Source: a virus
Taxonomy: Duplodnaviria > Caudoviricetes
IMG/VR virus record: IMGVR_UViG_3300031999_000023
Coordinates: 1 to 59,782 of that record
Reading direction: 5' to 3' (one strand)
Length of the DNA stretch: 59,782 bases
In this document: piece after piece, positions 40,446 through 57,764 of the stretch
Layout of the letters: every line of letters starts with the position of its first letter
Numbering within the stretch: position 1 is the first letter of the stretch
Notes under the pieces: model-generated
The model's database searches: none
Seen by the model: only the letters and a program-made list of their open reading frames with translations
Told to the model about the DNA's origin: nothing
Program-made: the position numbers and the translations under genes

Positions 40446-42008
40446 CTAAACTTTCCGCATACAGAGCACAGTTTCATAGTCAATACGGACATCGTCGTTC
40501 CAATCCCAATGCACTTCGCCGGAATCCATAAAAGCAAGTTCCTGGGCCTTTTGTAGAATCCTGCATAGTTTGGCTTTAGTGAGTTTCTCTGTGGCCTTAG
40601 TAATCCATATCTCGTGTGATTCTTGAGGTAGCGTTTTCCAATAGTTTCTCCAAGCCGCTTTATTGTTGGCATTTCGGCGGAAGAATGATACCCGTTCTTT
40701 ACGTTGTTTTTTGGCCCAGTCCATAATCATTGTTGCCGGCTCTTTGTAAAGCATGGCGTGGTGTAGGCATACCGTTTGGAAGCCCTGGGACTCGCACAGG
40801 CGTTGCCAGTCGCCGGGGAAGTCTACGAGCTTGCCTTTGCGGACAAATGCCTTGACGACCCATATAGCGAATCCCTGGGGCTTTAGGATTTTGTAGCATT
40901 CGGAAATTATAATTTTCGCTGCGGACCAGAATGTTTCGCCCTGCTGTTGACCAAGTTGACCTTGTGCATCGCCATATTTGCGTTCGTATCGCTTTGTGGA
41001 ATCGTGTGGGCATAAGTCATTTGATTTATTGGGCGTAGTCATACTTCCTTCATACGGTGGGCTCGAAATGATTGCCGAGACTTCGCCGGGCGGCAGAGAG
41101 GCTATGTTGCCGGGAGTATTCATATCTGCATAATCTTGTTTAACTCTGGCCGCACTATCGACTCCACCTGCCCATTGAGCCTTTCCTGCCGTCATATCTT
41201 TTGGATTATTATTTACCTGAGTCGATTGAGAGAATGGCGGCGAACTAACCACCGCATCGACGCTGCCGGGCTTCATGGCGCCCAACTGGCCGGGAGTCTG
41301 ACCGTGATTCTCTGGCATATATGAACGTTTGCCTACTAAGTCGAATACTCCTTTGCGTTGTGATTCGTTGTGATATCCTTTCTTCGCAATCCCCCCGCCA
41401 GTTTGTGCTTCGGCGAAAGGCGGACTCCCCACGATACACTCCGCCCGTCCGATGATTTCGGACAACTGGCGGCTGTCGCCCTGGATCATTACCGGCTGGT
41501 AGCTGTGGCCGAAGTGGCCGCACTCGAAAGCCTTGCGGTTGCGCTCGAAGTTGCCGACGTAGTGATGCGGCTCGGAGCATGGAATTATGCCCGTGTGCTG
41601 TTTATACCATCCTTGAGCCTGACCATGACATTCAGGGCATATATCGGGATTCTTGCGGAACCTGTTAAACCATCGCAACCATTCAGGCTTGCTCATGCCT
41701 GGGCAATCGTAGCTGTTTGCCATGCGATAAAATTCAGACTCTAATTCCACACAGACCACACGCAGGCCCAGAGAAGCGCCGACGAGTCCCGTCGAACCTA
41801 TCCCGCCGAACGGATCGACTACGACGTCGCCGGGCTTAATCCATCCTTCGCCCATGGCGTGCTTGAATATCCGCTTTGTAAGAGCGTAGCTCATCTTGGC
41901 AAGTCATGGGTGGGCAAACGCTTCAGGCACAATAATACCTTGCCACGATTCATCGTAACAGTTGTGCCATTTGCTAATGCCCACCGGTTCCTTTTTGTTT
42001 TGATTCAT
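40446..42008 (-). CDS. Amino (N4C/N6A-type) DNA methyltransferase interrupted by an in-frame TGA at 41904-41906
   Basis: AFAHP*LAKMSY, then DPFGGIGST (SAM binding) and three SPP[F/Y] motifs; main ORF 40446..41894. Confidence 0.75.
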
Positions 42009-42009
42009 A

Positions 42010-42549
42010 TTAACCCTTGTGATTGGTTGTTCTTCCTAATTTCTCAACTATGCCATGACAACTACGACACAGAATAACAATATTGTCTGGCCCAAATGCT
42101 TCTTCATGGTTTTCACATTCAGAATATGGTTTTTTATGATGCGGAATAGCATTAAACCCCTTAACGTAAACATTACATCTATCGCATTTATTTTTTGCTC
42201 TTTGAAGTGCCCACAACCTCATAACCTTCCATGCCGTACTCCTACTTCCAAACCGAGTGCTTGTGCCACCTTTCCACTTTGAAGATTTTGTTCCAGTAAG
42301 TGTTTTCTGAAATTCGTTCGCACATTCTCGACTACAAAAACGTCCCCTACCTTGTTTAATTCTCCATTCAGGAACTGAAAAAAAACCCATGCATTGTGGA
42401 CATATCGTATCAACAAACCGTCTTTGTTTTTTACTTCCACTACCTTTGCCTGCACAATAACAACATGTTTTGCTTTTTGTACTTTTTGCCTTGCCACACT
42501 TTGGGCATGCCTGGAAGTTCTTTTGATATTTTCTATTCAGCAATAACAT
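42010..42549 (-). CDS. HNH endonuclease with zinc-finger repeats
   Basis: CPQC...FCSREC; CDRC...HHKK...DNIVILCRSCH. Confidence 0.85.
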   Translation of the reverse strand: MLLLNRKYQKNFQACPKCGKAKSTKSKTCCYCAGKGSGSKKQRRFVDTICPQCMGFFSVPEWRIKQGRGRFCSRECANEFQKTLTGTKSSKWKGGTSTRFGSRSTAWKVMRLWALQRAKNKCDRCNVYVKGFNAIPHHKKPYSECENHEEAFGPDNIVILCRSCHGIVEKLGRTTNHKG

Positions 42550-42620
42550 ATTATCCCCTGCCAGCCATCATCGTAGCATCCGTGCCATTCGTTACAGATT
42601 ATTTCGTTCTCAAAGTTCAT
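42537..42620 (-). pseudogene. Displaced original N-terminus of the methyltransferase
   Basis: GAGAGG RBS then MNFENEIICNEWHGCYDDGWQGII, homologous to KWHNCYDESWQGII downstream of the HNH gene. Confidence 0.75.
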
Positions 42621-42821
42621 TCGACCTCTCTAAATACGGAAATTAAAGGCTCTTGCAGGCGCCTGAACTGGTCCTTCATAGCCGCCTTCTCGAACGGCGT
42701 GAACTTCTCTTTGCGCTCGCGCTGGCGGTCTCGTATCATCTTTTTCAGTTGAGCGGTTTTTCGTTCTTTCCAGTCCATCTTTTACTCCGTTCTGAATCTT
42801 GCCCGATACCGGGTTAAAATA

Positions 42822-42888
42822 GGCGGCGGGGACATAGGCAACGAGCCTATCCGTGAAAAACGCTTATTCATAAGCCGCCCCCGCCACC
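42822..42888 (-). ncRNA. Small multi-stem RNA candidate
   Basis: 10-bp closing stem GGTGGCGGGG/CCCCGCCGCC enclosing the hairpins GCTTAT/ATAAGC and ATAGGC/GCCTAT. Confidence 0.4.
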
Positions 42889-42926
42889 AAGTTCTCAATA
42901 CTTCATAGGCGATCCACCTCCTTTCG

Positions 42927-43319
42927 TTAGGCGGCCTTTTCGTTGCCGTCGAAGCCCATATTCGATTGCCTTTCTTCGGCCATCATCTTCCGCTCGGTGA
43001 CAATCTCATGGGTATCGTCCCGCGTCACAATAACTTTGCCTTCGGTGTAGTTCAGTTCCATCGTGCAGGCCGTGTTGCGATAATCGTATTTGTTGCGGAC
43101 AAGATTGCGTTGCACTTTGGCTGCGGCTTCCTTGGCTTCGATCTGTGCCTTGAAGTCGGCCACAACCTCCTTTCGCTTGTCGTCAAGGGCTTCGAGTTCG
43201 TCGAGATTGCGAGCTAATTCCTGAGCGGCAACTCTGACCTCTTCCACGGTAAGCTCGCATTTCAGAAGCCTTGTTTCATGCGTGGTTTTGATGCTTGGTA
43301 AATCATTTTTCTTTGCCAT
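42927..43319 (-). CDS. Conserved phage coiled-coil protein
   Basis: LKCELTVEE...RDDTHEIVTERKM; AAGGA RBS. Confidence 0.7.
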   Translation of the reverse strand: MAKKNDLPSIKTTHETRLLKCELTVEEVRVAAQELARNLDELEALDDKRKEVVADFKAQIEAKEAAAKVQRNLVRNKYDYRNTACTMELNYTEGKVIVTRDDTHEIVTERKMMAEERQSNMGFDGNEKAA

Positions 43320-43344
43320 AGTGACATTCCTTTCTTTTCGATTA

Positions 43345-43848
43345 TTATGTATTGCATTCCTGCAGCAACATTTGCTGGGACTCTTTTTCTCGTTCGTTAC
43401 TTAGTGCGGTTATGTATATTTCCGTGCGCGGGTTTTCAGAATATCGTTTTATAATCCGCCCATCGCAAACCTGCGAATCGTTTCGGAAGAACACGCCCGT
43501 CAGGGCATCAAGAACAAGTTTATCGCAGTTATCACGGTCTTTGCCCGTATCCTTCCAGATCGATGCGGAGTCCTTGAGCTTACCCGCGTTCCGACCGGAG
43601 CCGTAATCGGTCTTTCGGTACGCATAGAAGAAAAAACAATCGACGCGCAACGGCCCGATCAGGGGCTTGTCCGGCGCCTGGGCTTGGACTATGGACCGCA
43701 GAGACTGTTTATCAACGGCGGACGGGTCGTATGCTCGCACGAACTTCAACGGCTTGCCGTTACGGTCCTTGCCTGTGTACCTGTGCCGCTTTTGGGCTTG
43801 TGGCTCGCCGAGTATTACGAGCTTATAGTCGTAGGGCTGCTTAGCCAT
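43345..43848 (-). CDS. rusA: RusA-family Holliday junction resolvase
   Basis: GEPQAQKRHR...KDRDNCDKLVLDALTG..FRNDSQV...KRYS. Confidence 0.85.
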   Translation of the reverse strand: MAKQPYDYKLVILGEPQAQKRHRYTGKDRNGKPLKFVRAYDPSAVDKQSLRSIVQAQAPDKPLIGPLRVDCFFFYAYRKTDYGSGRNAGKLKDSASIWKDTGKDRDNCDKLVLDALTGVFFRNDSQVCDGRIIKRYSENPRTEIYITALSNEREKESQQMLLQECNT

Positions 43849-44090
43849 CAGTCAGTTCCTTTGCACTTAAAATATTTCTTCCGCGTCATACCAAAATGTT
43901 CTTCTGCCATGCTCTGATTAAAATATTCACCGCAATATAGACATCGAAATGCCATCCAAACAGGTATAGTTCCAGTACGTATATCACCACAATTACGAAG
44001 TGTTACATAGCCCATCTTCGCTTCCTGCATTTGTTTTGCTACAAATTTACGTTTGGCTTCAACTGTTTTTCTCGTATCCGAACATTTCAT
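43848..44090 (-). CDS. Small Zn-finger protein
   Basis: FRCLYCGEYF...AEEHFG. Confidence 0.6.
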   Translation of the reverse strand: MKCSDTRKTVEAKRKFVAKQMQEAKMGYVTLRNCGDIRTGTIPVWMAFRCLYCGEYFNQSMAEEHFGMTRKKYFKCKGTD

Positions 44091-44350
44091 TATTCACCAC
44101 CCTTCTTGTGAGTTCTCGAAAATCCCAATTTTGAAGCTCCTGAAATTACATCGGCCCGCAGCGACATGACGTCTTTGTACTGATCACCAGTCAGTCGCGG
44201 CAGATTAAGGGCCTCGGTAATCTGGTAGTCCTTGCCGCACCATCCACACCGGAATAAATTGCGCCAAGGTTGCCAGAGTAAGTTGGGTTTACCGCAATTC
44301 TTACCGTCGCACGTCGCCCGTTCTGCTATGATTTCGAGTTCATTTTCCAT
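44090..44350 (-). CDS. Small Zn-ribbon protein
   Basis: CDGKNC...CGWC; translationally coupled. Confidence 0.55.
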   Translation of the reverse strand: MENELEIIAERATCDGKNCGKPNLLWQPWRNLFRCGWCGKDYQITEALNLPRLTGDQYKDVMSLRADVISGASKLGFSRTHKKGGE

Positions 44351-44577
44351 TAGTCACCTCTTTTCTTGTTATGGCCTGCTTTTATCCGGCGTGTTCTCAA
44401 AAAAGCCTTTGCACGGTCTATGACAATATCTCTCATCTCATAAAGTAAAAACCAGCAGTTCGTTGTCGATAAATTACGGCATTCCCCGATGAGCTTTCTT
44501 AACTCGTCGCTGGATAACTTGCTGATTGAATTATCAAATGCTTCACTGATTTTGCTGATTCGTTTGAAATTAGACAT
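44350..44577 (-). CDS. Hypothetical protein
   Basis: STTNCWF motif; coupled. Confidence 0.55.
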   Translation of the reverse strand: MSNFKRISKISEAFDNSISKLSSDELRKLIGECRNLSTTNCWFLLYEMRDIVIDRAKAFLRTRRIKAGHNKKRGD

Positions 44578-44581
44578 CGGT

Positions 44582-44998
44582 TCATCCTGTTAATAGTTTT
44601 GGCATTTCTGATTTTTGAAGTCTTGCAATATTCTCCGGCATTCGCATGAAGTCGCCTACTGTCGTGCCGTCAGGCAGCGCCATCATCGCAAGGAATTGAT
44701 CTTCAAACGTTATTCCGCCGGACTGGATTTCTTCCAGTTTCATTTTGAGGCTCATATAGAATATCCGCCATCGCTGCCGGACGGCCTGTTTGTATCCGCT
44801 GTCGGTCCTGTAATCGTTCGGACTGGGCATTGGGACGTTATGCTTAAAAACCTTGCCCTTGTATTTGAATCCTATGCCATCGCCTCGGGGACTCGTGCCG
44901 AAAAAGAATTCATCGATCCCGTAATTTATCAGAAGGTCTTGGACTTGAACTTTAGTCCTGCTTACCTCTACTGTTGTATTTTTGGCGTATTTAGACAT
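44582..44998 (-). CDS. Conserved phage hypothetical protein
   Basis: YAKNTTVEVSRT...RQRWR...KMKLE...FEDQFLA...LPDGTTVGD. Confidence 0.7.
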   Translation of the reverse strand: MSKYAKNTTVEVSRTKVQVQDLLINYGIDEFFFGTSPRGDGIGFKYKGKVFKHNVPMPSPNDYRTDSGYKQAVRQRWRIFYMSLKMKLEEIQSGGITFEDQFLAMMALPDGTTVGDFMRMPENIARLQKSEMPKLLTG

Positions 44999-45710
44999 TA
45001 TCCCCCTCCGCCTCATTGAAAGACGTACCATGACAACCAAGACACTCCGTTGGCTTGCTCTGGAATTCAAGCCCGCACTTTTTGTTTTTGCATATCCAGA
45101 TTTTCTTTTTGACATGCCCCTGCCGGTCCGGGTTATTCTCTGCCTGCTCGGCCATGTCGGAGTTCTGCCGCCCGGCCAAGGCACGCAGCCTTGCAGCCTC
45201 TGCGTGGTTGCCTTCATGCTCGGCATAAGCGGCCGCGGCCAGCTCCTCAATTTCGAACTGGCCCAGAGAAACAGCTTTCCCATTTCCCCAATATTGAGCC
45301 CGCCACATCAGCGTGCCGTCCTGCCTCTGCTTGGCGGCTGAGACACCTTTGTATTGCGATGACTTTTTCCTCGGCCCGCGTAAGCCCGGGATGTGTTTGG
45401 GTTTGTCCTCCTTGACCGCCTTTTTGTATTTGCCGCGCAGCTTTTTCCCGGCCTTTGTTTTCGGTGCAGCCGCCGGCTTTTCTGCCGCAACCTGATTCAG
45501 ACTATCTGTTTGTATGAATGGCTCAAAAGTCGCTTGGGCCGGTGTAAACTGCGAACATACATCATCGCCGAGCAAAAGGTCTGATTCTGATCCGTCCCCG
45601 GTGCAGACCAAAGAGACTATTTTAACGGTCCGCGCGTCCCTGAGTAAATAACACTCTCCATCAGCCCCCACATAAAACCTGGTTTGTTTAATCGTTTCTT
45701 CCGTGATCAT
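44991..45710 (-). CDS. AP2-domain DNA-binding protein with C-terminal Zn ribbon
   Basis: SSQYKGVS...WRAQ...LGQFEIEELAAAAY; CKNKKC...CLGC. Confidence 0.7.
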   Translation of the reverse strand: MITEETIKQTRFYVGADGECYLLRDARTVKIVSLVCTGDGSESDLLLGDDVCSQFTPAQATFEPFIQTDSLNQVAAEKPAAAPKTKAGKKLRGKYKKAVKEDKPKHIPGLRGPRKKSSQYKGVSAAKQRQDGTLMWRAQYWGNGKAVSLGQFEIEELAAAAYAEHEGNHAEAARLRALAGRQNSDMAEQAENNPDRQGHVKKKIWICKNKKCGLEFQSKPTECLGCHGTSFNEAEGDNV

Positions 45711-45739
45711 TTTTGTTTCTCCTTTCACCTTTACGGGAT

Positions 45740-46132
45740 CTACGCCGTCGTTTCGTTTTCGTGGATGTTTCCGATGACTTCGACAGCTCTGCCTAAATAA
45801 AATCTTGGCTCTGTTTGTTGGTCTCGCAAAAAAGGCATCCAGCCACAACTACACCAAGCCACCATACTGCAAGGTTCGTGGGGAGTTAGTAATAAATCCC
45901 CCTCGTATATCTCTTGCCCTTCTGGGAACTCTTCTGTTCGCTTGCAGTCCTTGAGGCTGGTGAACTCGCCTATGGTTTCGGGAAGGACTGAATAAAATTC
46001 TTCAAACTCTTTTCCGTTAATACCCGTATGAATATAATACTCCACACCATCGGCCAACCGTTCCCAATCGAGTGACCCGTAAACCCATTCCCCATTATCT
46101 ATACGCTTGCCTCTGAACTTTATCTCTCTCAT
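45740..46132 (-). CDS. YopX-family protein
   Basis: MREIKFRGKR..NGEWVYG...IYEGD...EVIGNIHEN. Confidence 0.88.
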   Translation of the reverse strand: MREIKFRGKRIDNGEWVYGSLDWERLADGVEYYIHTGINGKEFEEFYSVLPETIGEFTSLKDCKRTEEFPEGQEIYEGDLLLTPHEPCSMVAWCSCGWMPFLRDQQTEPRFYLGRAVEVIGNIHENETTA

Positions 46133-46135
46133 TGT

Positions 46136-46930
46136 TTACTCCTTTGTTTTTTGTTTAGCCACACTTGCCCTGTAGCCAATTTCTTTATCGAGTCTGGAGA
46201 AGAACACCGCCATTGGGATTCTTCCTGATTTTGAATCTTTTGCTATCACGAGAATCTTTTGATAAATAGTTTCATTCAAAAGTTTTTCTTCGATTTGGAA
46301 CTTCACCCATTGAATGAGGTTCAACAATGCTTGTCTCTGTGATTTCGAGTTAGGTTTGAGCGATTTGTCCAAGTCTTCCGCGAACCGTAACAAATCCATA
46401 GACAAAGATGCGCGAGCTTTAGCCATATCATGGTTCTTACGATTAGAAAAATCGTTACTATGTTCTTCTTCTTCTTCTTTATCTGCTTCTGCTTCTGCTT
46501 CTGCTTCTGCTTGGGCTGACTTTTGCTGACATCCTGCTGACATTGCCTGTTTTAACATTCCTTTTTTGTCTCGCTCTCTTTGATTCCTTTTGGCTATGCG
46601 GTTCTGTTCACGCCGTTTTTCTAAATCACGGTTTCTGCGATACTTATCATAATTTATCAAATGCCAGCCGCCTTGAATCCGCTCGATTCGACGTCCTTCT
46701 TTGTCGGGAGTTTTGCTATACATATCAGGACTTTGCAGCTTTTCAATTGCTGACTCATATTGACATTTGCTGACGTTAGCTGACGTCATCAACCGTCGCG
46801 GATCGCCTATGACATTTCCATCCACGTCAGCCATAGCTAAAAAAGTTATCCAAACAATTCGTGTTGCGGTGTCCTCTTCCCAAATACTACTGTTGATTAT
46901 GCCGCTGTAGAGCTTCGTGAATCCGTTCAT
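46136..46930 (-). CDS. Phage replication initiator protein
   Basis: FTKLYSGIINSSIW...AMADVDG...WHLINYDKYR, AEAEAEAE linker, internal iteron-like repeats. Confidence 0.75.
   Translation of the reverse strand: MNGFTKLYSGIINSSIWEEDTATRIVWITFLAMADVDGNVIGDPRRLMTSANVSKCQYESAIEKLQSPDMYSKTPDKEGRRIERIQGGWHLINYDKYRRNRDLEKRREQNRIAKRNQRERDKKGMLKQAMSAGCQQKSAQAEAEAEAEADKEEEEEHSNDFSNRKNHDMAKARASLSMDLLRFAEDLDKSLKPNSKSQRQALLNLIQWVKFQIEEKLLNETIYQKILVIAKDSKSGRIPMAVFFSRLDKEIGYRASVAKQKTKE
46515..46784. repeat. Iteron-like GCTGAC repeats (candidate origin)
   Basis: TGAC at 46517, 46527, 46538 and 46751, 46761, 46771, 46781 (10-11 bp phase). Confidence 0.55.
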
Positions 46931-46941
46931 AGTAGAATCCT

Positions 46942-46998
46942 AAAAATAAACCCCAGGCTGACCGCAAGATCAACAAAGTTGAAATGCACCTGGGGTTT
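46942..46998 (-). terminator. Hairpin plus U-rich tract just upstream of the initiator gene
   Basis: AAACCCCAGG...CCTGGGGTTT followed by ATTTTT. Confidence 0.45.
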
Positions 46999-47077
46999 TG
47001 TATATAATCGTTCAATCCATTCGGTTATGATATACATAGCTTCCCTGCTTATGCTTCCTTGCTCTTTTAACGCCTTA

Positions 47078-47803
47078 TTATTTCGGATATTCCTTAAACT
47101 CAATTCTAAATACCCACCAGTTACCATCCCACGGATAGCCGCGATTGGAATTGATGGAGTCCCAGAGGCATTCATAGGCTTCTTTTGCTGTACTAAATCC
47201 ACCACCTTTTTCAGGAAATGCTGGATATATCATTACTGGATTAAAATGTGTTCCTCCGCCATGTGCCGAGTAACCACTTATGCCTTCCCTTATCGCATCT
47301 TCCTCGGTAATATCCCACAACTGCTCTATTCGTACATTTACAACCTCAAGCCATTTCCGGGCCGCCCACTTCGGCATGAACATAGGTGAACGCTTTCGCC
47401 AAGTGCCTCTAAGGGGGTTGGTTTGTTTCCAATGAATTTTCGTCGGCTCGATTCCACCAATACCCTCAACAAATGGGTCGGGACAGTCTGCTACATATCG
47501 CGGCTTAACTGTATGGCTTTGTGTCAGACTTTGCCATTTTCCGTTCTCCATGTGGCCTATGTCCCACCATGCTTCTTTTATCCAAAGCAAATCACCGACG
47601 TTATAATGCGAATAAATTGTCTTGGTTCCGCAGTCGCCGTAGATAATAAATTCCTCGGCACCATTTGGATTATTCTCAAACGCTGTATATCTTCGATGCC
47701 ATTTTTCGGGCATATTCTTAATTATCCGCCGGGTAACAGTCTTGCGCCCTTCAAGTATTGCCTTAACCATTTCGGCTGTGAATGATATTGGTTTTTCAAT
47801 CAT
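47078..47803 (-). CDS. ASCH/PUA-like phage protein
   Basis: PISFTAEMVKAILEGRKTVTRR...SPMFMPKWAAR...ITEEDAIREG. Confidence 0.8.
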   Translation of the reverse strand: MIEKPISFTAEMVKAILEGRKTVTRRIIKNMPEKWHRRYTAFENNPNGAEEFIIYGDCGTKTIYSHYNVGDLLWIKEAWWDIGHMENGKWQSLTQSHTVKPRYVADCPDPFVEGIGGIEPTKIHWKQTNPLRGTWRKRSPMFMPKWAARKWLEVVNVRIEQLWDITEEDAIREGISGYSAHGGGTHFNPVMIYPAFPEKGGGFSTAKEAYECLWDSINSNRGYPWDGNWWVFRIEFKEYPK

Positions 47804-48723
47804 TTCGGATACTCCTGCCTCTGTGCCCATAAGGGCCATTCTGCCGGTTTATTACTGCACTTGCCGTTAATGGGAACCTGCTTTACAAAACAGGCCACAC
47901 CAGACTCTCGGTATTGATTAACAGCATTGCGTACATCCTCGATACTGCATAACCTTGCGTTCAGACCGCTTTCGCAACCGATGATTACCCAGTCAATTTT
48001 GTTTAAGCCTCTACTTACATCAATTATATATTTGCCCCCACAAGCGTTGATATGTCTGAAATCTATCCTTTCCAGCATCGGCTCAAGGCTGATAAACCGC
48101 ACGGAGGCGGGAATTTGCAGCAATATCGGGATGTTCTTATCTGCGTCGGCCTGTGTGGAAATTGATGTTCCGAGCCAGAGATTTGGCAAGGGCTTATCAT
48201 TGAAGTCTGTTTGCTCTGCCGCCTTCTCAAACCTGTCCCAATTCCTGCCAAGATAGCCCTTGTGTCCCTCATCAAGCCAGCCCGTTAAAACATTGTACCA
48301 TTGAGGCATGCGGTCAACCCGATATGAATCATCAATTGACGTTCGTGTCATGTAGTATTCCATCGCCCGTTCAATCCGTTTCGTCAGAACCTGGAATGTA
48401 TGTTGGGGACATAAGGCTATTATCGCGTGAGCCCGGTCGATATACTCGAACGGCACGTCCTCGTGAAAAATATCCGTCATCGACCCGAGAAATATCATTC
48501 TCGGCTTCCTGAGTCGCAATATCATATCGAGTTCGTGCATCTGATACCCGATTTTGCCTGTCCATTTTCCATGTGGTCCTACTACGTCGGCGTAAGCCTT
48601 GTGTCCCATAGCCCTTAACCGCCTTGCCATTTGCTCTGCGTAGCAATGAAGGCATCCGGTGGCACATTTTGTACAGCCAACCCAGGGATTAACCGTTATT
48701 TCCGTCCAGGGAATTTTTGTCAT
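47800..48723 (-). CDS. Gp37/Gp68 (DUF5131) radical-SAM-like protein
   Basis: NPWVGCTKCATGCLHCYAE, SMTDIFHE, FQVLTKR, SLEPML, DWVIIGCESG, FVKQ. Confidence 0.9.
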   Translation of the reverse strand: MTKIPWTEITVNPWVGCTKCATGCLHCYAEQMARRLRAMGHKAYADVVGPHGKWTGKIGYQMHELDMILRLRKPRMIFLGSMTDIFHEDVPFEYIDRAHAIIALCPQHTFQVLTKRIERAMEYYMTRTSIDDSYRVDRMPQWYNVLTGWLDEGHKGYLGRNWDRFEKAAEQTDFNDKPLPNLWLGTSISTQADADKNIPILLQIPASVRFISLEPMLERIDFRHINACGGKYIIDVSRGLNKIDWVIIGCESGLNARLCSIEDVRNAVNQYRESGVACFVKQVPINGKCSNKPAEWPLWAQRQEYPK

Positions 48724-50022: not shown

Positions 50023-50057
50023 GATTTTCTCCTTTCTTTATATGTTTTCCTTAAAAA

Positions 50058-50164: not shown

Positions 50165-50288
50165 CCTCAATACGGGCGGAATCCTTTCCGCTTATTGGAA
50201 CTTACAAGGCTCATCAATTATTTACTTGTCAAAAATAAGGGCGGGGCGGCCACAAGGATGAAAAAACCGCCCGCCTTGAAGGAAAAAA

Positions 50289-52432: not shown

Positions 52433-52466
52433 TTTGATTTTCTCCTTTCAATTATTCTTAGCCTGC

Positions 52467-53093
52467 TTAGTTTGCTTTTTCCTCAAGCGTTGCAATCTCA
52501 TCGCAGAAATACATGACCTTGACTACCGGGTTGTGATACCAGGCGTTTGCCAGCGACTTGCCTCGGCGTTCTTCTTTGCTCTTTGATTCATCGCCCCTCA
52601 GCGGGAATTCGCCCGATTGCCAATCATCTTCTTTGTAAAATTCATTCAGGCCGTAAACGCCCATGTGGTACGTGATTATCAGCTCCTCGATCTCCGTCAG
52701 CTCGATATACTCTTTGATGCGGGCGATGGACAGCAGGGCGTGACCCTTGGGCTGGCCCCGGTTCCACTTGTACGGTTTCTTGATGCCGATAGCCCCGATC
52801 TTGCAAACATCGTGCAGCAGGGCAGCTATGGTGATGTTCTCCTGCGTTAATGGCAGTGGCTCTTGCCCGGAACCCGTGCCTGTGCCGAGCATGAGCATGT
52901 TGTTAAATCCCGTAAGCAACTCATAAACTCTAAGGCTGTGATTTGCCAGCCCGCCCGGATATGCTCCGTGAAATTTGGTCGATGCAGGTGCCTCGAAAAA
53001 GCCCTCCGCTTTCAGGTAACCGATCATCGCGTCCATGCCTTTGCGATTCGTACTTGTAAGCAACTGTATGATTTTTTCTTCCGTGTTATTCAT
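52467..53093 (-). CDS. HD-domain hydrolase
   Basis: APASTKFHG...GGLANHS...LLHDVCK...HMG. Confidence 0.88.
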   Translation of the reverse strand: MNNTEEKIIQLLTSTNRKGMDAMIGYLKAEGFFEAPASTKFHGAYPGGLANHSLRVYELLTGFNNMLMLGTGTGSGQEPLPLTQENITIAALLHDVCKIGAIGIKKPYKWNRGQPKGHALLSIARIKEYIELTEIEELIITYHMGVYGLNEFYKEDDWQSGEFPLRGDESKSKEERRGKSLANAWYHNPVVKVMYFCDEIATLEEKAN

Positions 53094-53120
53094 TTTGTTT
53101 TTCTCCTTTTTTTAAAAAAG

Positions 53121-53239
53121 GCCGGCGGGCCTATCCCACTTTCTTCGCAGGTTCGCTTCGGGTCAGAAAAAACCGCCTGCTCTCGCGTGCAATGGATAAG
53201 GTGCCAATAGCGCTTCAGCAACATTCCGTCACCGCCGGC
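53121..53239 (-). ncRNA. Structured small RNA candidate (same family)
   Basis: GCCGGCGG-TGACGGAA...GC-CCGCCGGC followed by a U-tract. Confidence 0.45.
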
Positions 53240-53291
53240 ATATCACGTTGGCCTTTATCGGCCGTTGTGTTCGTATTCACTTGTCAATTAA

Positions 53292-53357
53292 GTCAGGCAA
53301 AACGGGTCGCTACCCCGCACGTTCCTTATTGGCCAGCGCAGTTCTTTATTGCCTGAC
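53292..53357 (-). ncRNA. Small stem-closed RNA with a T-arm-like hairpin
   Basis: GTCAGGCAA/TTGCCTGAC closing stem; CGGG-GTAGCGA-CCCG near the 3' end. Confidence 0.35.
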
Positions 53358-53362
53358 GCATT

Positions 53363-53926
53363 TTAGAATAGATTGGATTTTAGAGCTCCGGCGGGTTGGA
53401 GCTTTTGCTTTTCCTTGGTGACTTTCTTGTTAGTCTCTTCGTCAAAATTCAAACAGGCAAATTCACCAAACAATTTTATCGCTGCCTTGTCATAGGTTCT
53501 CGCAGCGTCGATCTCGGAATCGAATTGGCCGAGATTCTTCTTCTTGCCGTCAACACAAATTTGTGCCTGCCATTTGTGTCTACGTTTATCCCAGCAAACA
53601 CCTTTATAGATTGACGAACCCGCTCTTCTATTCAGATTTCGGTTACGTTTGTTCTGTAAACTGGTGCAGATCCTCAGATTCTCTCTCCGATTATTTAATT
53701 TGTTGTGATCGATATGGTCGGTCTGTTTATCTGCGGGCACATTCAATATTTCGCGGTGCATATAAATCCATTGCTGTCGCTGTTGTTTCCGTCCACCGCC
53801 CAAGTAGATTGTTCGCATCGCGTAGCCTTTGGAATGGAAATACCACTTCCATCGGCTTAACCGTTCATAATCTTGGTCATCGACAATGGCTACCTTGCCT
53901 TGTGTGAGTGATATTGTTTTTGACAT
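53363..53926 (-). CDS. HNH-AP2 endonuclease
   Basis: LTQGKVAIVDDQD...DHIDHNKLNNRRENLR...SIYKGV...FGEFACLNF. Confidence 0.9.
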   Translation of the reverse strand: MSKTISLTQGKVAIVDDQDYERLSRWKWYFHSKGYAMRTIYLGGGRKQQRQQWIYMHREILNVPADKQTDHIDHNKLNNRRENLRICTSLQNKRNRNLNRRAGSSIYKGVCWDKRRHKWQAQICVDGKKKNLGQFDSEIDAARTYDKAAIKLFGEFACLNFDEETNKKVTKEKQKLQPAGALKSNLF

Positions 53927-53936
53927 CACAAAAACC

Positions 53937-54875
53937 TCAAAAGAGATTCGACTGTTTCTTATTTTTATCACCGACGCCGACAGCGTTAAGTTTTTCCTTT
54001 TGTTGATTGATCATCTCGTTGACTTCTTCCGGCCTCTCGTCCGGATCGACCGGCTCGGGCTCGGCTGAATTGACAATCGTATCTTCAATTTGCCGGTCAG
54101 TCACAACTTCATCTTCGCCATCGCCGCCGTTTTGTTTCTTCTCGCGTTCGGCCAGGCGTTCTTTAAGTGCCTCGACGCCGGATTCGATAACGGTGGATTC
54201 GACGTGCTTCGGTCCGATCTCAGCAGCCTCATCCGTTGTCAGCATTCCCATAGTGACTTCCGGGCAATGCCTTCTCTGGAACCATGCCGCCGATCTGAAA
54301 TGGAACATTTGTTCAGACATCGTATTCCATTTGGATTTTAGGATGCCGCCACCGTCCCTTAACTGCTTATCCTTGTTCCAGCCTTCGGCCTCGACCAAAT
54401 TCCAATCAATCCAGGGACCATAAAGAACAGTGCCGGTGCTTTTTCGTGTTGCAAAAGCGCGTATCCTGAAATTTTTCTTGTCTTTTACATCGCCGATAAC
54501 TTCGTATTCAAGCGGATCGATGAACATTCTGGATTGATTAACCAGCGATGTCACCAACGCAGCATCCATACCGATACGGCCATGAACGGAATAGACATGC
54601 TGCATTACGGCCAGCCAGGAAGCCCCAAGACGGGCCGCAAGATCCAACGCAACCAGGCAGTCACGTGGCTTGCCTCTGTACGTATCGGGGACCATTTCGG
54701 AGCCCGCAAGTGCCTCAGCAAGCCGCCAGGCCTCCTCTATAGTCGTAGGCTCGAATCCGCGTCTCGTCATAGCCAGATTAGCCTTTGGCTCCGGCATCTT
54801 TTCGGGCGGCTTTACCGGAGGTGCCGTCACTTGCCCCTTTTCAGGAGCGGTTGTTTGTGTTTGTTTCTTTGCCAT
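53937..54875 (-). CDS. RecT-like single-strand annealing protein
   Basis: SEMVPDTYRGKP...VMQHVYSVHGR...SKW...QMFHFRSA...PEVTMG; adjacent to YqaJ. Confidence 0.8.
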   Translation of the reverse strand: MAKKQTQTTAPEKGQVTAPPVKPPEKMPEPKANLAMTRRGFEPTTIEEAWRLAEALAGSEMVPDTYRGKPRDCLVALDLAARLGASWLAVMQHVYSVHGRIGMDAALVTSLVNQSRMFIDPLEYEVIGDVKDKKNFRIRAFATRKSTGTVLYGPWIDWNLVEAEGWNKDKQLRDGGGILKSKWNTMSEQMFHFRSAAWFQRRHCPEVTMGMLTTDEAAEIGPKHVESTVIESGVEALKERLAEREKKQNGGDGEDEVVTDRQIEDTIVNSAEPEPVDPDERPEEVNEMINQQKEKLNAVGVGDKNKKQSNLF

Positions 54876-54885
54876 GATTTTCTCC

Positions 54886-55830
54886 TTATAATTTGATTGA
54901 TGAAATAGTGTATTCTCTTTTAACTTTTTTCAGCCTCGTTACACGACATTTCGATGTCTTCGTGTATTTGGCTGCAATTTCCGGCAGCTCCTTTCGGAGT
55001 TTCTCTACATCAATGAGACGCGAGCATTGCTCGAAATATGTAAGCATCATTGGCTGTCTATCCAGCACGAAATTTGCAGCCTCGGCGTCGCCCAGGGCCG
55101 TCAGTATCGCAGACTGTGCATCTTCAAGAATAGCTTCGGCCCACTTGACCTTGTTTTTTGCATCCTGAAAATCTTTAATCAACTTGACCTGCTCTTCGTC
55201 AAAATCAATTACCTTTTCAGGAACACGCTTGATCCTCTTGATAAAAGCAAGGCTCGGCGTTATGTTTTCGGGCGGAGTATCGTTCTCTACGCAATCCCAG
55301 AAGTCCAACGCCTTTTCCAGAATCGTATCGACGATAATCTGTTCTCTTTTGACTTCGAACATGACGAACCCTCGACCGCCAATAAAGGCGGGAACGTGAC
55401 ACAATTCATGCTCGGAACATATCATGTGGCAGTGACATTGAATAAGGATTCCGTCCGGCAATTCATCAGATCCGGCTTCGCCCCATTCATCCACAAGCGG
55501 ACCGAACAGGCCCGCCGTCTTGGCTTCGACCGGATCCCCCGTAATGATAACCTGCGCATCAAGGTGATCTATCAAGTGGAACTCTTCAAGAAACAATTCA
55601 ACGTTTCTTCGCAATGGGCCGAGCTGCACTTCCGCCCAGTCAATCACTCCCGGCTCAAAAAGTGTCCCGGCCAGCATGGCTTCGTTCGGCTCGAAATCGT
55701 TCGTCCGGTTTGTCTTGTCTAACCAAACGTCATAGGCATTCTTGTATTTGTCAAATCCAAGAATTGCGGCCATATCGGATGAGCCAATGTATTCTTTGCG
55801 CTTCAGCCTTTCAGCTTCTGTTATCGGCAC
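54886..55830 (-). CDS. YqaJ-like viral recombinase exonuclease
   Basis: RKEYIGSSDMAAILG...GTLFEP...LDA...VEAKT...IQCHCHM. Confidence 0.9.
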   Translation of the reverse strand: MPITEAERLKRKEYIGSSDMAAILGFDKYKNAYDVWLDKTNRTNDFEPNEAMLAGTLFEPGVIDWAEVQLGPLRRNVELFLEEFHLIDHLDAQVIITGDPVEAKTAGLFGPLVDEWGEAGSDELPDGILIQCHCHMICSEHELCHVPAFIGGRGFVMFEVKREQIIVDTILEKALDFWDCVENDTPPENITPSLAFIKRIKRVPEKVIDFDEEQVKLIKDFQDAKNKVKWAEAILEDAQSAILTALGDAEAANFVLDRQPMMLTYFEQCSRLIDVEKLRKELPEIAAKYTKTSKCRVTRLKKVKREYTISSIKL

Positions 55831-56053
55831 GATCTATCTCGCTTTCCGGCAAAAAACATAATTGATCAGGAGCCGTTGCCTGTCCCGTGTAATTCTCGTA
55901 GTTGTCCCAGTCGCCGTCGCATTTATAGACCACAAAGATAAAACTTTGGTTCCAGGATTCAATGCGTCCCTGTTCTCGCTCGCCGGCCATGCCGACGTAC
56001 AAAACCCACCGGCCCTTGTCTGACTCAGTTAATTTGGAAATTGCTATCGGCAT
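55811..56053 (-). CDS. Hypothetical protein
   Basis: AAGGAG RBS; DKGRWVLY...FIFVVY. Confidence 0.6.
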   Translation of the reverse strand: MPIAISKLTESDKGRWVLYVGMAGEREQGRIESWNQSFIFVVYKCDGDWDNYENYTGQATAPDQLCFLPESEIDRADNRS

Positions 56054-56297
56054 TAGCCTTCTCCTTACAATCTTCGCAAAACAGTAGGCCGTCAATTTCA
56101 GTTAAACAGTTCTTGCACCCGACGAAACCGCAGCCGTCGCAAACCTCAGTACAGCCTTTGTGTATCTTCGCATCGCAGACGCTGCAATTCATTAGCTCGT
56201 AGTCGTAAATGGTCCCGCCGCAAACTTCGCAGCTTCCGACTTCGTCGGGGATTTTTGGCGTTACGCCGCAACTGAAACGGTCTAAATTTGAACTCAT
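56025..56297 (-). CDS. Cys-rich Zn-finger protein
   Basis: Multiple CxxC pairs. Confidence 0.6.
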   Translation of the reverse strand: MSSNLDRFSCGVTPKIPDEVGSCEVCGGTIYDYELMNCSVCDAKIHKGCTEVCDGCGFVGCKNCLTEIDGLLFCEDCKEKANADSNFQIN

Positions 56298-56409
56298 AAT
56301 TTGTCTCGCTTTCCTTCGATCTCAAGCAGGGCGGCAATGGGCCAAATTACCGCGACCATCATCCAGAATATTGCTGTTATGATTCGCATTGTTTCTCCTT
56401 TCTTAAAAA

Positions 56410-56524
56410 CCAGCAGGGGCGGGCAAATCGGTTAATTTGCAGGGCGAAAAAGGCACATCTCTTAACTTTTCTTTTTAGCCTGCGATGTAAGTCCCTGGGC
56501 CACCACGCCGCCGCCCCTTGCTGG
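56410..56524 (-). ncRNA. Structured small RNA candidate (GGGGCGG-stem family)
   Basis: CCAGCAAGGGGCGGCGGCG...TGCCCGCCCCTGCTGG-TTTTT. Confidence 0.5.
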
Positions 56525-56543
56525 CATATTCACTTGTCAAAAT

Positions 56544-56678
56544 TGACCGAGATGAGATTCGAACTCACGCAGATAAGCTACTACCCTTATCTTGGTACTG
56601 TCACAATCCATTAGTAAGATGAACTATCGTACTCGCCGCCGGCGTAAGCCGGCCGCTCTGCCGCTGAGCTACTCGGCC
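56544..56678 (-). ncRNA. tRNA-like RNA with oversized variable region
   Basis: Acceptor GGCCGAG/CTCGGTC, D-arm GCTC-AGCGGCA-GAGC, T-arm GTGAG-TTCGAAT-CTCAT; 6-nt anticodon loop and ~65-nt insert. Confidence 0.75.
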
Positions 56679-56683
56679 CATAT

Positions 56684-57066
56684 TCATTTGTAAAATAGCC
56701 CGTTAGCCGCCGGGTCGCTCATCATTCCGGCTCTTGGGTTTTCTCTTTGAACTACAACATTCTTAACACCGAAATTTAGAGCCTCAGTATGGGTCGGAAA
56801 ATAGGCATCAAGTCTGTTTCCTTTGATTGCCCCGCCTCGGTCGAGTACAGGCACCGGCTGATTGTTCGCATATCCCGGAACGATCAGCATGGTCCCGAAT
56901 GGAACATCTTTGGAAGCCGCTACAAATTTATCTCCCGGCCGGATAACGTGACCGGAAGCCGTTCGTCTCGGATATATACTTGCCCATCGGCCACAGCATT
57001 TGGTCAGGTGCAGGGACAATATGCGGTTACTCTAAATACTTGAGTAATGCACTTCTGTCCCTGCAT
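56684..57066 (-). CDS. 3D-domain (MltA-like) protein broken by a 5-nt insertion containing TGA
   Basis: FRVTAYCPCT* then, in another frame, TKCCG...TASG...PFGT...VLDRGGAIKGNRLDAYFPTHTEALNFG. Confidence 0.75.
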
Positions 57067-57595
57067 ATGCCCTTTCTTGGTTTCGTTTTCTTGAGGCAAC
57101 TCGCTTCTTAATGGATGCTGGACTGTCTTTGGGGTGCGTTCCATTGAATAAGTCATTATGATATTTGACATGAGCAGAATTACTGCCAAACAAGATAAGG
57201 TTGTCTGCCCTATTGTCCGTTCTCTTGCCGTTCTTGTGATGTACACTTTCTGTTCCTTTCAATTTACGCCCCAGGATTTGCTCCATAACCAAACGATGTT
57301 TGAGTTCGTATTTCTTAGCGGCGACTTTTATATACACATATCCATTAGAACCGACATATTCAGCGCCTATTCTGAGCCGAGCAGCATAGCAGCATTGATT
57401 CGAGCAGTATTTTTTTCGTTCCGATTTTTGGGCTGGGCGCAGAAAGCCTGTTCCGCAAAAAGCGCACTTGACTCGCACTTGCTTTGCTTTGTGATCAATC
57501 TGATAGCATGACCAACTACAATAACGAGGACGCCGACGATAATTTTCCTTCGGAATAACTGTGCCGCATATCTTGCAAAAATATATCTCAATCAT
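57032..57595 (-). CDS. HNH endonuclease with zinc-finger repeats
   Basis: YCSWSC/YCSNQC repeats; HRLVMEQILGRKL...VHHKNGKRTDNRADNL. Confidence 0.88.
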   Translation of the reverse strand: MIEIYFCKICGTVIPKENYRRRPRYCSWSCYQIDHKAKQVRVKCAFCGTGFLRPAQKSERKKYCSNQCCYAARLRIGAEYVGSNGYVYIKVAAKKYELKHRLVMEQILGRKLKGTESVHHKNGKRTDNRADNLILFGSNSAHVKYHNDLFNGTHPKDSPASIKKRVASRKRNQERAYAGTEVHYSSI

Positions 57596-57764
57596 GTGCT
57601 ATTCCTTTTGTAATAAAAGACTCCGGCGAACTGGCCACGCTGGCCGGCGGAAATGTCTCGCCGAAATCTCCGGTATGAATGTTCTCTTGATACCAGATGT
57701 GGGACGTGAAACCGATTACGGTTCCACTGATTAAAGTCAGGATGAACTCGATGACATCTTTCAT
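57588..57764 (-). CDS. 58-aa TM-plus-linker ORF, probable original N-terminus of the 3D protein
   Basis: GAGAGG RBS then MKDVIEFILTLISGTVIGFTSHIWYQ...PPASVASSPES; overlaps the HNH start. Confidence 0.55.
   Translation of the reverse strand: MKDVIEFILTLISGTVIGFTSHIWYQENIHTGDFGETFPPASVASSPESFITKGIAHD

What the first reader, a model, noticed from the sequence alone, without database searches (positions are those of the whole stretch)
41890..57764. Candidate new homing element: Zn-finger HNH plus replacement start plus a UGAC micro-insertion in the host gene's conserved motif (two independent copies)
Seen: both zinc-finger HNH genes (42010-42549 and 57032-57595) sit inside the 5' part of another gene and leave an orphan N-terminus upstream (42537-42620 and 57588-57764). 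Each is followed by a new start. About 30-100 nt past the HNH stop, the resumed gene has a tiny insertion beginning TGAC in a conserved motif: CAC CCA [TGACTT] GCC AAG in the MTase and TGC ACC [TGACC] AAA TGC TGT in the 3D protein. Deleting exactly these 6 and 5 nt restores the family-like HPAK and CPCxKCC. I saw no such break in other long genes. Inference: the insert destroys the nuclease target (self-immunity, as an intron would) and is skipped during translation or RNA processing, acting as a minimal intron substitute. Programmed bypassing is established for T4 gene 60.
Basis: partly seen in the sequence, partly recalled or inferred. Interest (0 to 1): 0.88.

Follow-up and report, generated by a model that had tools for sequence, protein, structure and literature searches.

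The report
Tiny stop-codon inserts travelling with homing nucleases
Two selfish nuclease genes in a phage each carry a 5-6 base TGAC insert that breaks the most conserved motif of the gene they invaded, and the same insert recurs in unrelated phages, so ribosomes may simply hop over it.

Summary
Two HNH genes sit in the 5' parts of a DNA methyltransferase gene and a 3D-domain gene. Each is followed by a replacement 5' coding segment, which ends in a micro-insert: TGACTT at 41901-41906 and TGACC at 57002-57006. Removing exactly these bases restores the family motifs HPAK and CxCxxCC.

It is not chance or an artefact:
- Independent contigs of two sequencing runs carry the inserts.
- A sister strain has the 3D gene uninterrupted, with neither the HNH nor the insert.
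- The same TGAC(N)1-2 insert sits at the same HP|AK codon junction in 6 scattered methyltransferase lineages (7 of 55 distinct rows).
- It also sits at the same site in two further 3D genes that carry a 90%-identical HNH cassette.
- No HNH family was found upstream of 46 intact alleles.
- Sequence similarity between strains breaks exactly at the insert.

Best reading: this is a T4 MobA/gene-60-like mobile cassette with a minimal coding gap. The insert probably disrupts the nuclease target, and ribosomes probably bypass it by a 5-6 nt stop-hop at the weak UGA-C stop. In the 3D gene the take-off and landing codons match (ACC/ACC, ACC/ACU).

Mobility and co-inheritance are shown. Immunity and hopping are inferred and untested.

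The parts
42537..42620 (-). Orphan 5' fragment of the resident methyltransferase (MTase) gene: 24 family-like codons followed by a 3-codon tail. Its stop overlaps the HNH-1 start.
   Evidence: It resembles the N-termini of relatives such as P0020 and L093.
42010..42549 (-). HNH-1, a zinc-ribbon HNH endonuclease gene (P0001).
   Evidence: The gene is identical in run X2 while the flank at 42623-42706 differs.
41907..42008 (-). Replacement MTase 5' segment carried by the cassette: its own ATG plus 34 codons ending ...EAFAHP. The take-off codon is CCA at 41909-41907.
41901..41906 (-). Micro-insert TGACTT: an in-frame UGA followed by C, between the Pro and Ala codons of HPAK.
   Evidence: The same insert at the same site occurs in L111, L130, L140 and L124.
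40446..41900 (-). MTase body, from AK-M... to the stop. It carries N6_N4_Mtase motif I and the family C-terminus, uninterrupted.
57588..57764 (-). Orphan 5' part of the 3D gene: the hydrophobic N-terminus and linker, followed by a short foreign tail.
   Evidence: fused in frame to the 3D domain in the HNH-less X2 allele; same layout in L191 and L192.
57032..57595 (-). HNH-2, a zinc-finger plus HNH_3 endonuclease gene (P0002).
   Evidence: It is absent from an X2 contig. Homologues 86% identical in protein lie in L191 and L192.
57007..57066 (-). Replacement 3D 5' segment: an ATG that overlaps the HNH-2 3' end, then ...VFRVTAYCPCT. The take-off codon is ACC at 57009-57007.
   Evidence: It matches L191 and L192 30/30 over 57045-57016.
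57002..57006 (-). Micro-insert TGACC. UGA is in the A site after ACC, and the last A of UGA plus CC form a second ACC directly before the resume codon AAA.
   Evidence: absent in the empty allele; TGACT in L191 and L192.
56684..57001 (-). 3D-domain body (KCCGRW... to the stop).
53363..53971 (-). Third free-standing HNH (HNH_3 + AP2), behind the RecT-like gene. It is absent in X2. Its right junction, near 53287-53300, is non-coding and also contains TGACTT.

Best explanation
Each locus is a homing-endonuclease cassette built like the MobA/gene-60 element of phage T4, but with a minimal coding gap.

A cassette consists of:
- an HNH gene;
- a donor-derived replacement copy of the invaded gene's 5' coding segment, with its own start codon;
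- at its very 3' edge, a 5-6 nt insert TGAC(N)1-2, placed inside the most conserved DNA of the target gene.

Shown:
- The cassette is mobile and the insert travels with it.
- The insert marks the point where similarity between strains breaks.

Inferred, step 1: in naive alleles the nuclease acts at or near this point, and the insert disrupts the site, so the carrier genome is immune.

Inferred, step 2: the gene stays usable. Ribosomes pause with UGA-C, a poor terminator, in the A site. A fraction of peptidyl-tRNAs un-pair and re-pair 5-6 nt downstream, on the codon formed by the end of the insert. Translation resumes exactly at the next family codon and gives HPAK and CPCTKCC.
For: Mobility:
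- An X2 contig joins 57615 to 57003 through 37 other letters. It reads as one open 3D gene with CPCAKCCG, without the HNH and without the insert.
- The methyltransferase (MTase) cassette (41856-42622) is identical in X2, while 10 substitutions cluster at 42623-42706.
- L191 and L192 are 30/30 identical in every 30-column bin from 57780 to 57016, that is through the cassette, and diverge from the bin just past the insert.

Recurrence:
- A TGAC(N)1-2 insert sits at HP|AK in 7 of 55 distinct MTase rows: WIN, L111, L130, L140, L042, L038 and L079.
- On a quick tree of 50 rows, the 7 insert rows need 6 changes, and at least 5 are forced by well-supported branches.

Association with nucleases:
- An HNH lies upstream in WIN/L124 and in L038 (NUMOD4+HNH_3), and an HNH C-terminal remnant plus an orphan N-terminus lies upstream in L111. 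That is 3 of 6 lineages.
- 0 of 46 upstream ORFs of intact loci hit an HNH family. Fisher p = 9e-4.
- All 3 insert-bearing 3D genes have the HNH.

Signs of recoding:
- All 9 inserts start with TGA-C.
- Only 1 of 48 ends of ORFs of at least 180 aa in the window is TGAC, and TGA ends 14 of these ORFs, so TGA is a real stop here.
- Removing the whole insert, whether 5 or 6 nt, always restores the exact family motif.
- Take-off and landing codons: ACC/ACC (window 3D), ACC/ACU (L191, L192), CCG/CCG (L042), CCG/ACG (L038), UCU/ACU (L079). The third base matches in 5 of 7 lineages, binomial p = 0.013.
- The empty 3D allele has GCC where the cassette has ACC.
- The bodies downstream of the insert are complete in 7 of 7 MTase rows and 3 of 3 3D genes.
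- The segments upstream of the insert keep the family residues, with pN/pS of about 0.04-0.5.

Literature:
- Synthetic stop-hops with matched codons flanking a stop are established, and natural ones were unknown in 2016 (PMC5009743, passages).
- The MobA/bypass parallels include loss or swapping of the nuclease while the bypass stays (bioRxiv 2022.08.31.505936, sections 12, 15 and 16).
Against: - No protein or RNA data exist. Bypassing and immunity are untested.
- The commonest insert, TGACTT (window, L111, L130/L140), gives the landing codon CUU against take-off CCA or CCU, which is a poor match.
- L079 has HS|VK instead of HP|AK, as if constraint were relaxed.
- The insert occurs with no HNH seen upstream (L042, L140). 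It also occurs with two unrelated HNH types at the identical site, which is odd if it only serves one enzyme's target.
- No significant RNA structure (z from -1.35 to +0.06) and no Shine-Dalgarno-like stimulator was seen.
- The third HNH cassette ends with TGACTT in non-coding DNA, which hints at a DNA-level meaning of the motif.
- Divergence of the N-terminal segments may predate the inserts, so the pN/pS values do not prove selection after insertion.
- The L111 remnant was judged by eye.
Confidence: 0.45

Rival explanations
1. Tolerated damage. The insert is only a selfish immunity mark or a repair scar. The invaded gene is dead, or is expressed without its 5' segment, for example by re-initiation at the ATG 9 nt behind the UGA in the methyltransferase (MTase) gene. 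No recoding takes place.
For: - In 6 of 7 MTase insert rows an ATG follows the insert by two codons.
- Gene callers start proteins there (P0008, P0013, P0019, P0039, P0058, P0102).
- L079 has lost the P and the A of HPAK.
- Methyltransferases and 3D proteins may be dispensable to a phage.
- Cassettes look recent: they are identical between X2 and the window.
Against: - L042 has no ATG there (AKF...).
- The 3D body has no in-frame start before the catalytic core except an unsupported TTG.
- The cassettes carry complete, family-like 5' segments with their own starts.
- All 10 bodies are intact.
- The constant TGA-C and the co-varying last bases have no reason under this view.
- The MTase is intact in L111 although its HNH has decayed to a remnant.
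Confidence: 0.3
2. Local recoding that keeps two extra residues: UGA readthrough for the 6-nt inserts, a -1 shift for the 5-nt inserts, and a +1 shift for a possible 7-nt insert. The products would be HP-xx-AK and CPCT-LT-KCC.
For: - NNN_UGA_C is a classical shift site; GCG_UGA_C and CCG_UGA_C occur in yeast antizyme genes (PMC5009743, passages).
- The 5-, 6- and possibly 7-nt inserts all amount to about two codons. The 7-nt case is inferred from the gene call P0087 only.
Against: - It needs three different mechanisms for one element.
- No family member has a two-residue insertion at either motif, among 48 intact MTase rows and 18 3D loci.
- A +1 shift does not restore the frame at either window site (read from the sequence).
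Confidence: 0.1
3. TGAC(TT) is a DNA-level element of the cassettes: a boundary, a recombination or nuclease-binding signal, or a templated product of the invasion reaction. Its effect on translation is incidental.
For: - The non-coding right junction of the third HNH cassette also contains TGACTT, behind a copy of the 6 nt that precede the junction in the empty allele.
- The codon before His is GCC in 7 of 7 insert rows against 3 of 48 intact rows (Fisher p = 3e-6 on lineages). So a short 5' flank travels with the insert, or is required with it.
- Similarity between strains breaks exactly at the insert.
Against: - The HNH proteins involved belong to different families.
- The fourth HNH insertion, in the RusA-like gene of L124, has no TGAC at its junctions.
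- In coding DNA the insert always puts TGA in the incoming frame.
Confidence: 0.1
4. Assembly or sequencing artefact, or a reassigned UGA codon.
For: None, beyond the fact that the window is a metagenome-derived record.
Against: - Contigs built independently from two runs agree.
- The same inserts occur in other assemblies.
- TGA ends 14 of 48 long ORFs.
- The 5-nt inserts shift the frame, so a reassigned codon cannot explain them.
Confidence: 0.01

Closest known systems
Phage T4 MobA homing endonuclease plus the gene 60 50-nt translational bypass cassette (Bonocora et al. 2011, as cited in PMC5009743; Manning and Atkins, bioRxiv 2022.08.31.505936, sections 12, 15 and 16 read)
   Same: - An endonuclease gene is inserted in a host gene.
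- An orphan upstream part carries a short foreign tail.
- There is a donor-derived homologous replacement segment.
- A non-coding insert in a highly conserved site starts with a stop codon after the take-off codon.
[quoted passage not shown]
- The insert is retained after loss of the nuclease, or with a different nuclease.
- The distribution is patchy and looks recent.
   Different: - The gap is 5-6 nt, not 50 nt.
- No take-off stem-loop, gap Shine-Dalgarno sequence or recognisable nascent-peptide signal was found.
- The stop is UGA-C rather than mostly UAG.
- The host genes differ (methyltransferase, 3D protein), as do the nuclease families (zinc-ribbon HNH, NUMOD4/HNH_3).
- Bypass and immunity are unproven here.
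Synthetic 'stop-hops' in E. coli (Weiss et al. 1987, as described in PMC5009743, passages)
   Same: Matched codons flank a stop, so that 9 nt specify one amino acid. CCG UGA CCG in L042 is exactly this form, and ACC UG ACC is the +5 version.
   Different: Those were artificial constructs. The review states that no natural in-frame stop-hop was known. Here the sites are natural, recurrent and linked to mobile DNA. Several of them have only partial landing matches.
Collaborative homing: a free-standing endonuclease plus an ORF-less group I intron that splits its target (cyanophage S-PM2 F-CphI/psbA). Recalled; PMC6083498 was seen only in a search listing.
   Same: A nuclease gene beside the target gene, with a separate insertion in the target that would give immunity.
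   Different: There is no intron here: Rfam gave no intron match even at E up to 10. A 5-6 nt piece cannot self-splice.
prfB-type +1 programmed frameshift at CUU_UGA_C, and antizyme sites NNN_UGA_C (PMC5009743, passages)
   Same: A sense codon is followed by an in-frame UGA with C next. This context favours recoding over termination.
   Different: A +1 shift does not restore the frame at either site, and there is no upstream Shine-Dalgarno stimulator.
Mitochondrial 'byp' bypass elements of Magnusiomyces capitatus (as described in PMC5009743, passages)
   Same: Short mobile inserts in coding sequence that are skipped by ribosomes, with latitude in landing-site pairing.
   Different: Those are 27-55 nt, GC-rich and mitochondrial, use an unused A-site codon, and are not linked to nucleases (lengths and GC content recalled).

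Membership tests
HNH homing endonuclease gene (free-standing) | HNH catalytic domain | tested here: met
   - P0002 hits Pfam HNH_3 at 1.3e-9.
- P0001 hits PHROG HNH families at 3e-14, with Pfam HNH just under its cut-off.
- The L038 ORF has NUMOD4 plus HNH_3.
HNH homing endonuclease gene (free-standing) | Presence/absence polymorphism between close relatives at one site, with flanking gene conversion | tested here: met
   - An X2 contig lacks HNH-2.
- The HNH-1 cassette is identical in X2 while its flank has diverged.
- L191 and L192 are identical through the cassette and diverge behind it.
HNH homing endonuclease gene (free-standing) | Cleaves the empty allele and spares its own genome | not testable with these tools
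   This needs purified enzyme and both kinds of target.
MobA/gene-60-type mobile bypass cassette | An insert in a conserved host codon position that is co-inherited with the nuclease | tested here: met
   The insert is also retained without a nuclease in L042 and L140, as reported for gene 60 relatives.
MobA/gene-60-type mobile bypass cassette | Stop or hungry codon directly after the take-off codon | tested here: met
   UGA follows the take-off codon in 9 of 9 insert-bearing lineages.
MobA/gene-60-type mobile bypass cassette | Matched take-off and landing codons | tested here: inconclusive
   - Perfect or wobble match in the window 3D gene, L191/L192 and L042.
- Two of three bases match in L038, L079 and L130.
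- One of three bases matches in the window methyltransferase and L111.
MobA/gene-60-type mobile bypass cassette | Take-off stem-loop, Shine-Dalgarno sequence in the gap, nascent-peptide signal | tested here: not met
   The folds are not better than shuffles. A 5-6 nt gap cannot hold a Shine-Dalgarno sequence. The peptides upstream of the two sites are not similar to each other.
MobA/gene-60-type mobile bypass cassette | Ribosomes demonstrably bypass the gap | not testable with these tools
   No RNA or protein data exist. No run that holds the stretch is on record as RNA.
Group I intron carrying an HNH ORF | Ribozyme core flanking the ORF | tested here: not met
   Rfam gave no intron family at gathering score for the whole window, nor at E up to 10 around either HNH.
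Stop-codon reassignment (UGA read as a sense codon) | UGA is not used as a terminator, and in-frame UGAs occur across genes | tested here: not met
   TGA ends 14 of 48 ORFs of at least 180 aa. Long ORFs are open under table 11. The 5-nt inserts shift the frame.
prfB-like +1 programmed frameshift | A +1 shift at NNN_UGA_C restores the frame | tested here: not met
   Reading the sequence shows that a +1 shift leads to early stops at both sites.

The most novel reading that the evidence does not exclude
A natural stop-hop. A portable 5-6 nt UGA-C insert acts as the smallest known intron substitute. It is co-mobilised with varied homing nucleases into the most conserved codons of phage genes. It blocks re-cutting, while ribosomes hop over it to make the exact wild-type protein. 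If so, this is a general strategy among uncultured phages that gene callers currently report as truncated genes.
Probability: 0.4. Interest if true: 0.9.

Novelty: new variant of a known kind. Interest (0 to 1): 0.8.

Why it matters
- Efficient programmed bypassing has rested almost entirely on T4 gene 60 and its homologues. A 2016 review (PMC5009743, passages read) states that natural in-frame stop-hops were unknown.
- A recurrent 5-6 nt gap, found in two unrelated genes and several phage lineages, would give the recoding field a minimal natural system that is easy to test.
- It would also show that homing cassettes can protect themselves with an insert far smaller than an intron, an intein or the 50-nt gap.
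- Genes split at a TGAC insert may be whole genes; this matters for phage annotation.
- Even if hopping fails, the exact coincidence of a conserved micro-insert with the boundary of genetic exchange is a new marker of nuclease-driven recombination in phages.

Tried and rejected
- Cultured-phage collection: no DNA match to either locus and no tblastn match to the methyltransferase (MTase) at 1e-20.
- A single-protein MTase scan of viral contigs found nothing. The alignment A1 was needed.
- Degenerate DNA patterns for the broken motifs:
  - viral contigs gave 3 hits, of which only the L038 contig was real;
  - Genome contigs gave 33 hits, all chance and none an MTase;
  - the 3D pattern gave 5 hits, of which only the L191 and L192 contigs were real.
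- P0001 has no relative in viral contigs.
- The scan for frames that reopen 4-9 nt behind a stop gave 1229 trivial rows and was useless.
- RNA folds around five inserts were not distinguishable from shuffles.
- No RNA holder was listed for the stretch, so expression is unaddressed.
- Only Logan contigs could be laid, not raw reads, so minority insert-free variants cannot be excluded.
- The careful tree search did not finish; the quick tree is reported.
- pN/pS of the upstream segments cannot date selection relative to the insert.
The DNA behind the gene calls P0046, P0080, P0087, P0008, P0013, P0039, P0058 and P0102, which look like further broken alleles, was therefore not seen.
- Supplements of the papers were not opened.
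- Rejected explanations: group I intron, intein, UGA reassignment, +1 frameshift, and a suppressor role for the odd tRNA-like gene. Its anticodon loop, read by eye, does not show UCA.

Full report
**Setting**

The window is a complete virus record of 59,782 bases with direct terminal repeats. Almost all genes of the region lie on the minus strand. Neither locus has a DNA match among cultured phages, and the methyltransferase (MTase) has no tblastn match there.

HNH-1 (42010-42549) and HNH-2 (57032-57595) are HNH endonuclease genes.

Methyltransferase locus:
- Upstream of HNH-1 lies a 27-codon orphan whose first 24 codons are a typical N-terminus of this MTase family.
- Downstream, a second and different N-terminus starts at ATG 42008 and runs 34 codons to ...EAFAHP.
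- Then come TGA (41906-41904), CTT, and GCC AAG ATG... in the same frame.
- Among the 120 best protein homologues, every gene call that reaches this region reads HPAK without a gap, apart from three odd calls. So six bases are extra.

3D locus:
- Upstream of HNH-2 lies the hydrophobic N-terminus of a 3D-domain protein.
- Downstream, an ATG at 57066 opens ...VFRVTAYCPCT, followed by TGA (57006-57004). The 3D body, KCCGRW..., continues five bases later in another frame.
- In 20 related viral loci the frame is never broken, and 18 of them read CxCxxCC.

**It is real DNA, and the HNH and the insert come and go together**

- Contigs built independently from run X1 (possibly the source sample) match with no difference across both sites.
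- Run X2, from another sample and study, carries a close strain.
- One X2 contig (41609-43421, no gaps) keeps HNH-1 and TGACTT. It has no substitution between 41856 and 42622, but ten within 42623-42706.
- Another X2 contig joins 57615 to 57003 through 37 other letters, skipping the 611 bases that hold HNH-2.
- Read by hand in the gene's frame, this allele is one open 3D gene: N-terminus, linker and ...AFCPCAKCCG... It has no five-base insert, and it has GCC where the cassette has ACC.
- So the empty site exists in nature and is intact, and the right edge of the foreign segment is the micro-insert itself.

**The same insert recurs elsewhere**

Methyltransferase family:
- With an alignment of MTase homologues I fetched 41 viral and 80 metagenomic loci.
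- Among those whose N-terminal region is present, 48 distinct rows read HP-AK without a break.
- Seven rows carry an insert exactly between the P and A codons:
  - TGACTT in the window, L111, L130 and L140;
  - TGACCG in L042;
  - TGACG in L038 (also held as L105);
  - TGACT in L079, where the flanking residues are HS|VK.
- L124 is a 98-99% identical twin of the window.
- On a quick maximum-likelihood tree of 50 MTase bodies, the seven insert rows need six changes of state, at least five of them forced by well-supported branches (the careful search did not finish). The insert is patchy, as a mobile trait would be.

3D family:
- Two further phages, L191 and L192, hold an HNH 86% identical to HNH-2, inserted in the same way: orphan N-terminus, HNH...VTAYCPCT, and then TGACT before AAA TGC TG.
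- The 30 bases before the insert match the window 30/30, the HNH about 90%, and the 3D body behind the insert about 60-70%.
- L191 and L192 are identical to each other up to the insert and diverge right behind it.

**Association with nucleases**

- The ORF directly upstream of the MTase in L038 is a NUMOD4/HNH_3 endonuclease, unrelated to HNH-1.
- L111 holds an orphan MTase N-terminus fused to what looks like the last ~14 codons of that same HNH type, then a new N-terminus with TGACTT (similarity judged by eye).
- L130 has a PD-(D/E)XK-like endonuclease upstream (PHROG endonuclease family, 6e-6).
- L140 and L042 show no nuclease in what is held.
- L079 has too little upstream sequence to tell.
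- None of 46 upstream ORFs of intact loci hits an HNH family; 5 are NinG and 1 is DUF1064.
- An HNH or its remnant is found in 3 of 6 insert lineages against 0 of 46 intact loci (Fisher p = 9e-4).

**What the insert looks like as a recoding site**

- All nine insert-bearing lineages place UGA in the incoming frame with C next.
- At the ends of the window's own long ORFs, TGAC is rare (1 of 48), while TGA itself ends 14 of them. UGA is therefore a normal stop in this phage.
- That UGA-C is the weakest bacterial terminator is my recollection (Poole, Brown and Tate 1995). The review passages I read list NNN_UGA_C as shift sites.
- Skipping the whole insert, whether 5 or 6 nt, gives the exact family motif in every case.
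- The codon that would sit in the P site on landing resembles the take-off codon:

| Lineage | Take-off | Landing |
|---|---|---|
| Window 3D | ACC | ACC |
| L191, L192 (3D) | ACC | ACU (read by the same tRNA-Thr by wobble) |
| L042 | CCG | CCG (the classical stop-hop form) |
| L038 | CCG | ACG |
| L079 | UCU | ACU |
| L130 | CCU | CUU |
| Window MTase, L111 | CCA | CUU (poor) |

- The third base agrees in 5 of 7 lineages (p = 0.013; the lineages are not fully independent).
- The review by Atkins and colleagues describes synthetic stop-hops with matched codons flanking a stop, and says no natural case was known.
- Manning and Atkins report identical or U/C, G/A wobble-matched take-off and landing codons for gene-60-type cassettes.

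**Is the broken gene still used?**

For:
- All seven MTase bodies and all three 3D bodies behind inserts are complete to their conserved C-termini.
- The cassette-borne 5' segments keep the family residues, and they differ from one another mostly at synonymous sites (pS 0.4-1.1, pN 0.04-0.27). This divergence may, however, predate the inserts.
- In L111 the HNH has decayed while the new N-terminus, the insert and the MTase remain open.

Against:
- L079 has changed both residues next to the insert.
- In most MTase cases an ATG two codons behind the insert could allow re-initiation. This does not apply to L042 or to the 3D gene.

**A DNA-level side**

- The codon before His is GCC in 7 of 7 insert rows against 3 of 48 intact rows. 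About ten bases 5' of the insert therefore belong to the unit.
- A third HNH (HNH_3+AP2, 53363-53971), behind the RecT-like gene, is absent in X2. Its right junction is non-coding and also contains TGACTT. I cannot tell whether this is chance.
- A fourth HNH, present in L124 but not in the window, sits in the RusA-like gene (empty site near 43418-43428). It has 11-14 nt repeats at its junctions and no TGAC.

**Other readings tested**

- No group I intron was found.
- No significant RNA fold surrounds the inserts.
- A +1 frameshift does not restore either frame.
- UGA is not reassigned.

**Comparison with what is known**

The layout matches the MobA/gene-60 element as described in section 12 of the 2022 preprint:
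- a host gene split by an endonuclease;
- short foreign tails;
- a donor-derived homologous region;
- an insert that disrupts the nuclease site;
- the insert kept after loss of the endonuclease;
- the endonuclease swapped for other kinds.

The differences are the size of the gap (5-6 nt instead of 50 nt), the absence of the known stimulators, and new host genes and nuclease families. I therefore call it a new variant of a known kind, not a member of the gene-60 family.

**Verdict**

- Observation: confirmed.
- Mobile cassette with a co-inherited micro-insert at the exchange boundary: about 0.85.
- Target-site immunity: about 0.5.
- Translational stop-hop: about 0.4.
- Whole composite explanation: 0.45.

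Noticed in passing
window 56544-56678 (-): A tRNA-like gene lies directly behind the 3D gene. Rfam tRNA scores 41.3 bits, with about 64 extra bases in the variable region and an unusual anticodon arm. ARAGORN does not call it. The fold has a z-score of -2.56.
   Followed up: partly
window 53363-53971 (-), junction near 53287-53300: A third free-standing HNH (HNH_3+AP2) lies behind the RecT-like gene. It is missing in run X2, where the joint runs from 53287 to 53989. Its non-coding right junction contains TGACTT, and the last codons of the RecT-like gene differ between the two alleles.
   Followed up: partly
L124:343-966 against window 43418-43428: The 98-99% identical twin contig carries a fourth zinc-ribbon HNH, inserted in the C-terminal part of the RusA-like gene (window 43345-43848 is the empty allele). 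A repeat of 11-14 nt flanks the insertion, and there is no TGAC insert.
   Followed up: partly
L130:117-584 and L140:1-157: In L130 a PD-(D/E)XK-like endonuclease ORF sits where L140 has the end of a NinG-like gene. Both carry TGACTT in the methyltransferase gene, so different nucleases occupy the slot upstream of the same insert.
   Followed up: partly
L192: about 2455-3060: An AP2/HNH_3-type HNH, resembling the window's third HNH in protein, sits directly behind the 3D gene of L192. There is no similarity at the DNA level.
   Followed up: partly
window 46454-46521, 47958-48071, 54187-54855: Run X2 shows further joints, replacements and a skipped repeat in the replication/recombination module. 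This is strain-level mosaicism beyond the HNH sites.
   Followed up: no
proteins P0046, P0080, P0087: These gene calls begin in shifted frames across the HP|AK site. P0046 and P0080 fit 5-nt TGAC-type inserts. P0087 fits a 7-nt insert one codon earlier, between H and P. Their DNA could not be fetched.
   Followed up: no
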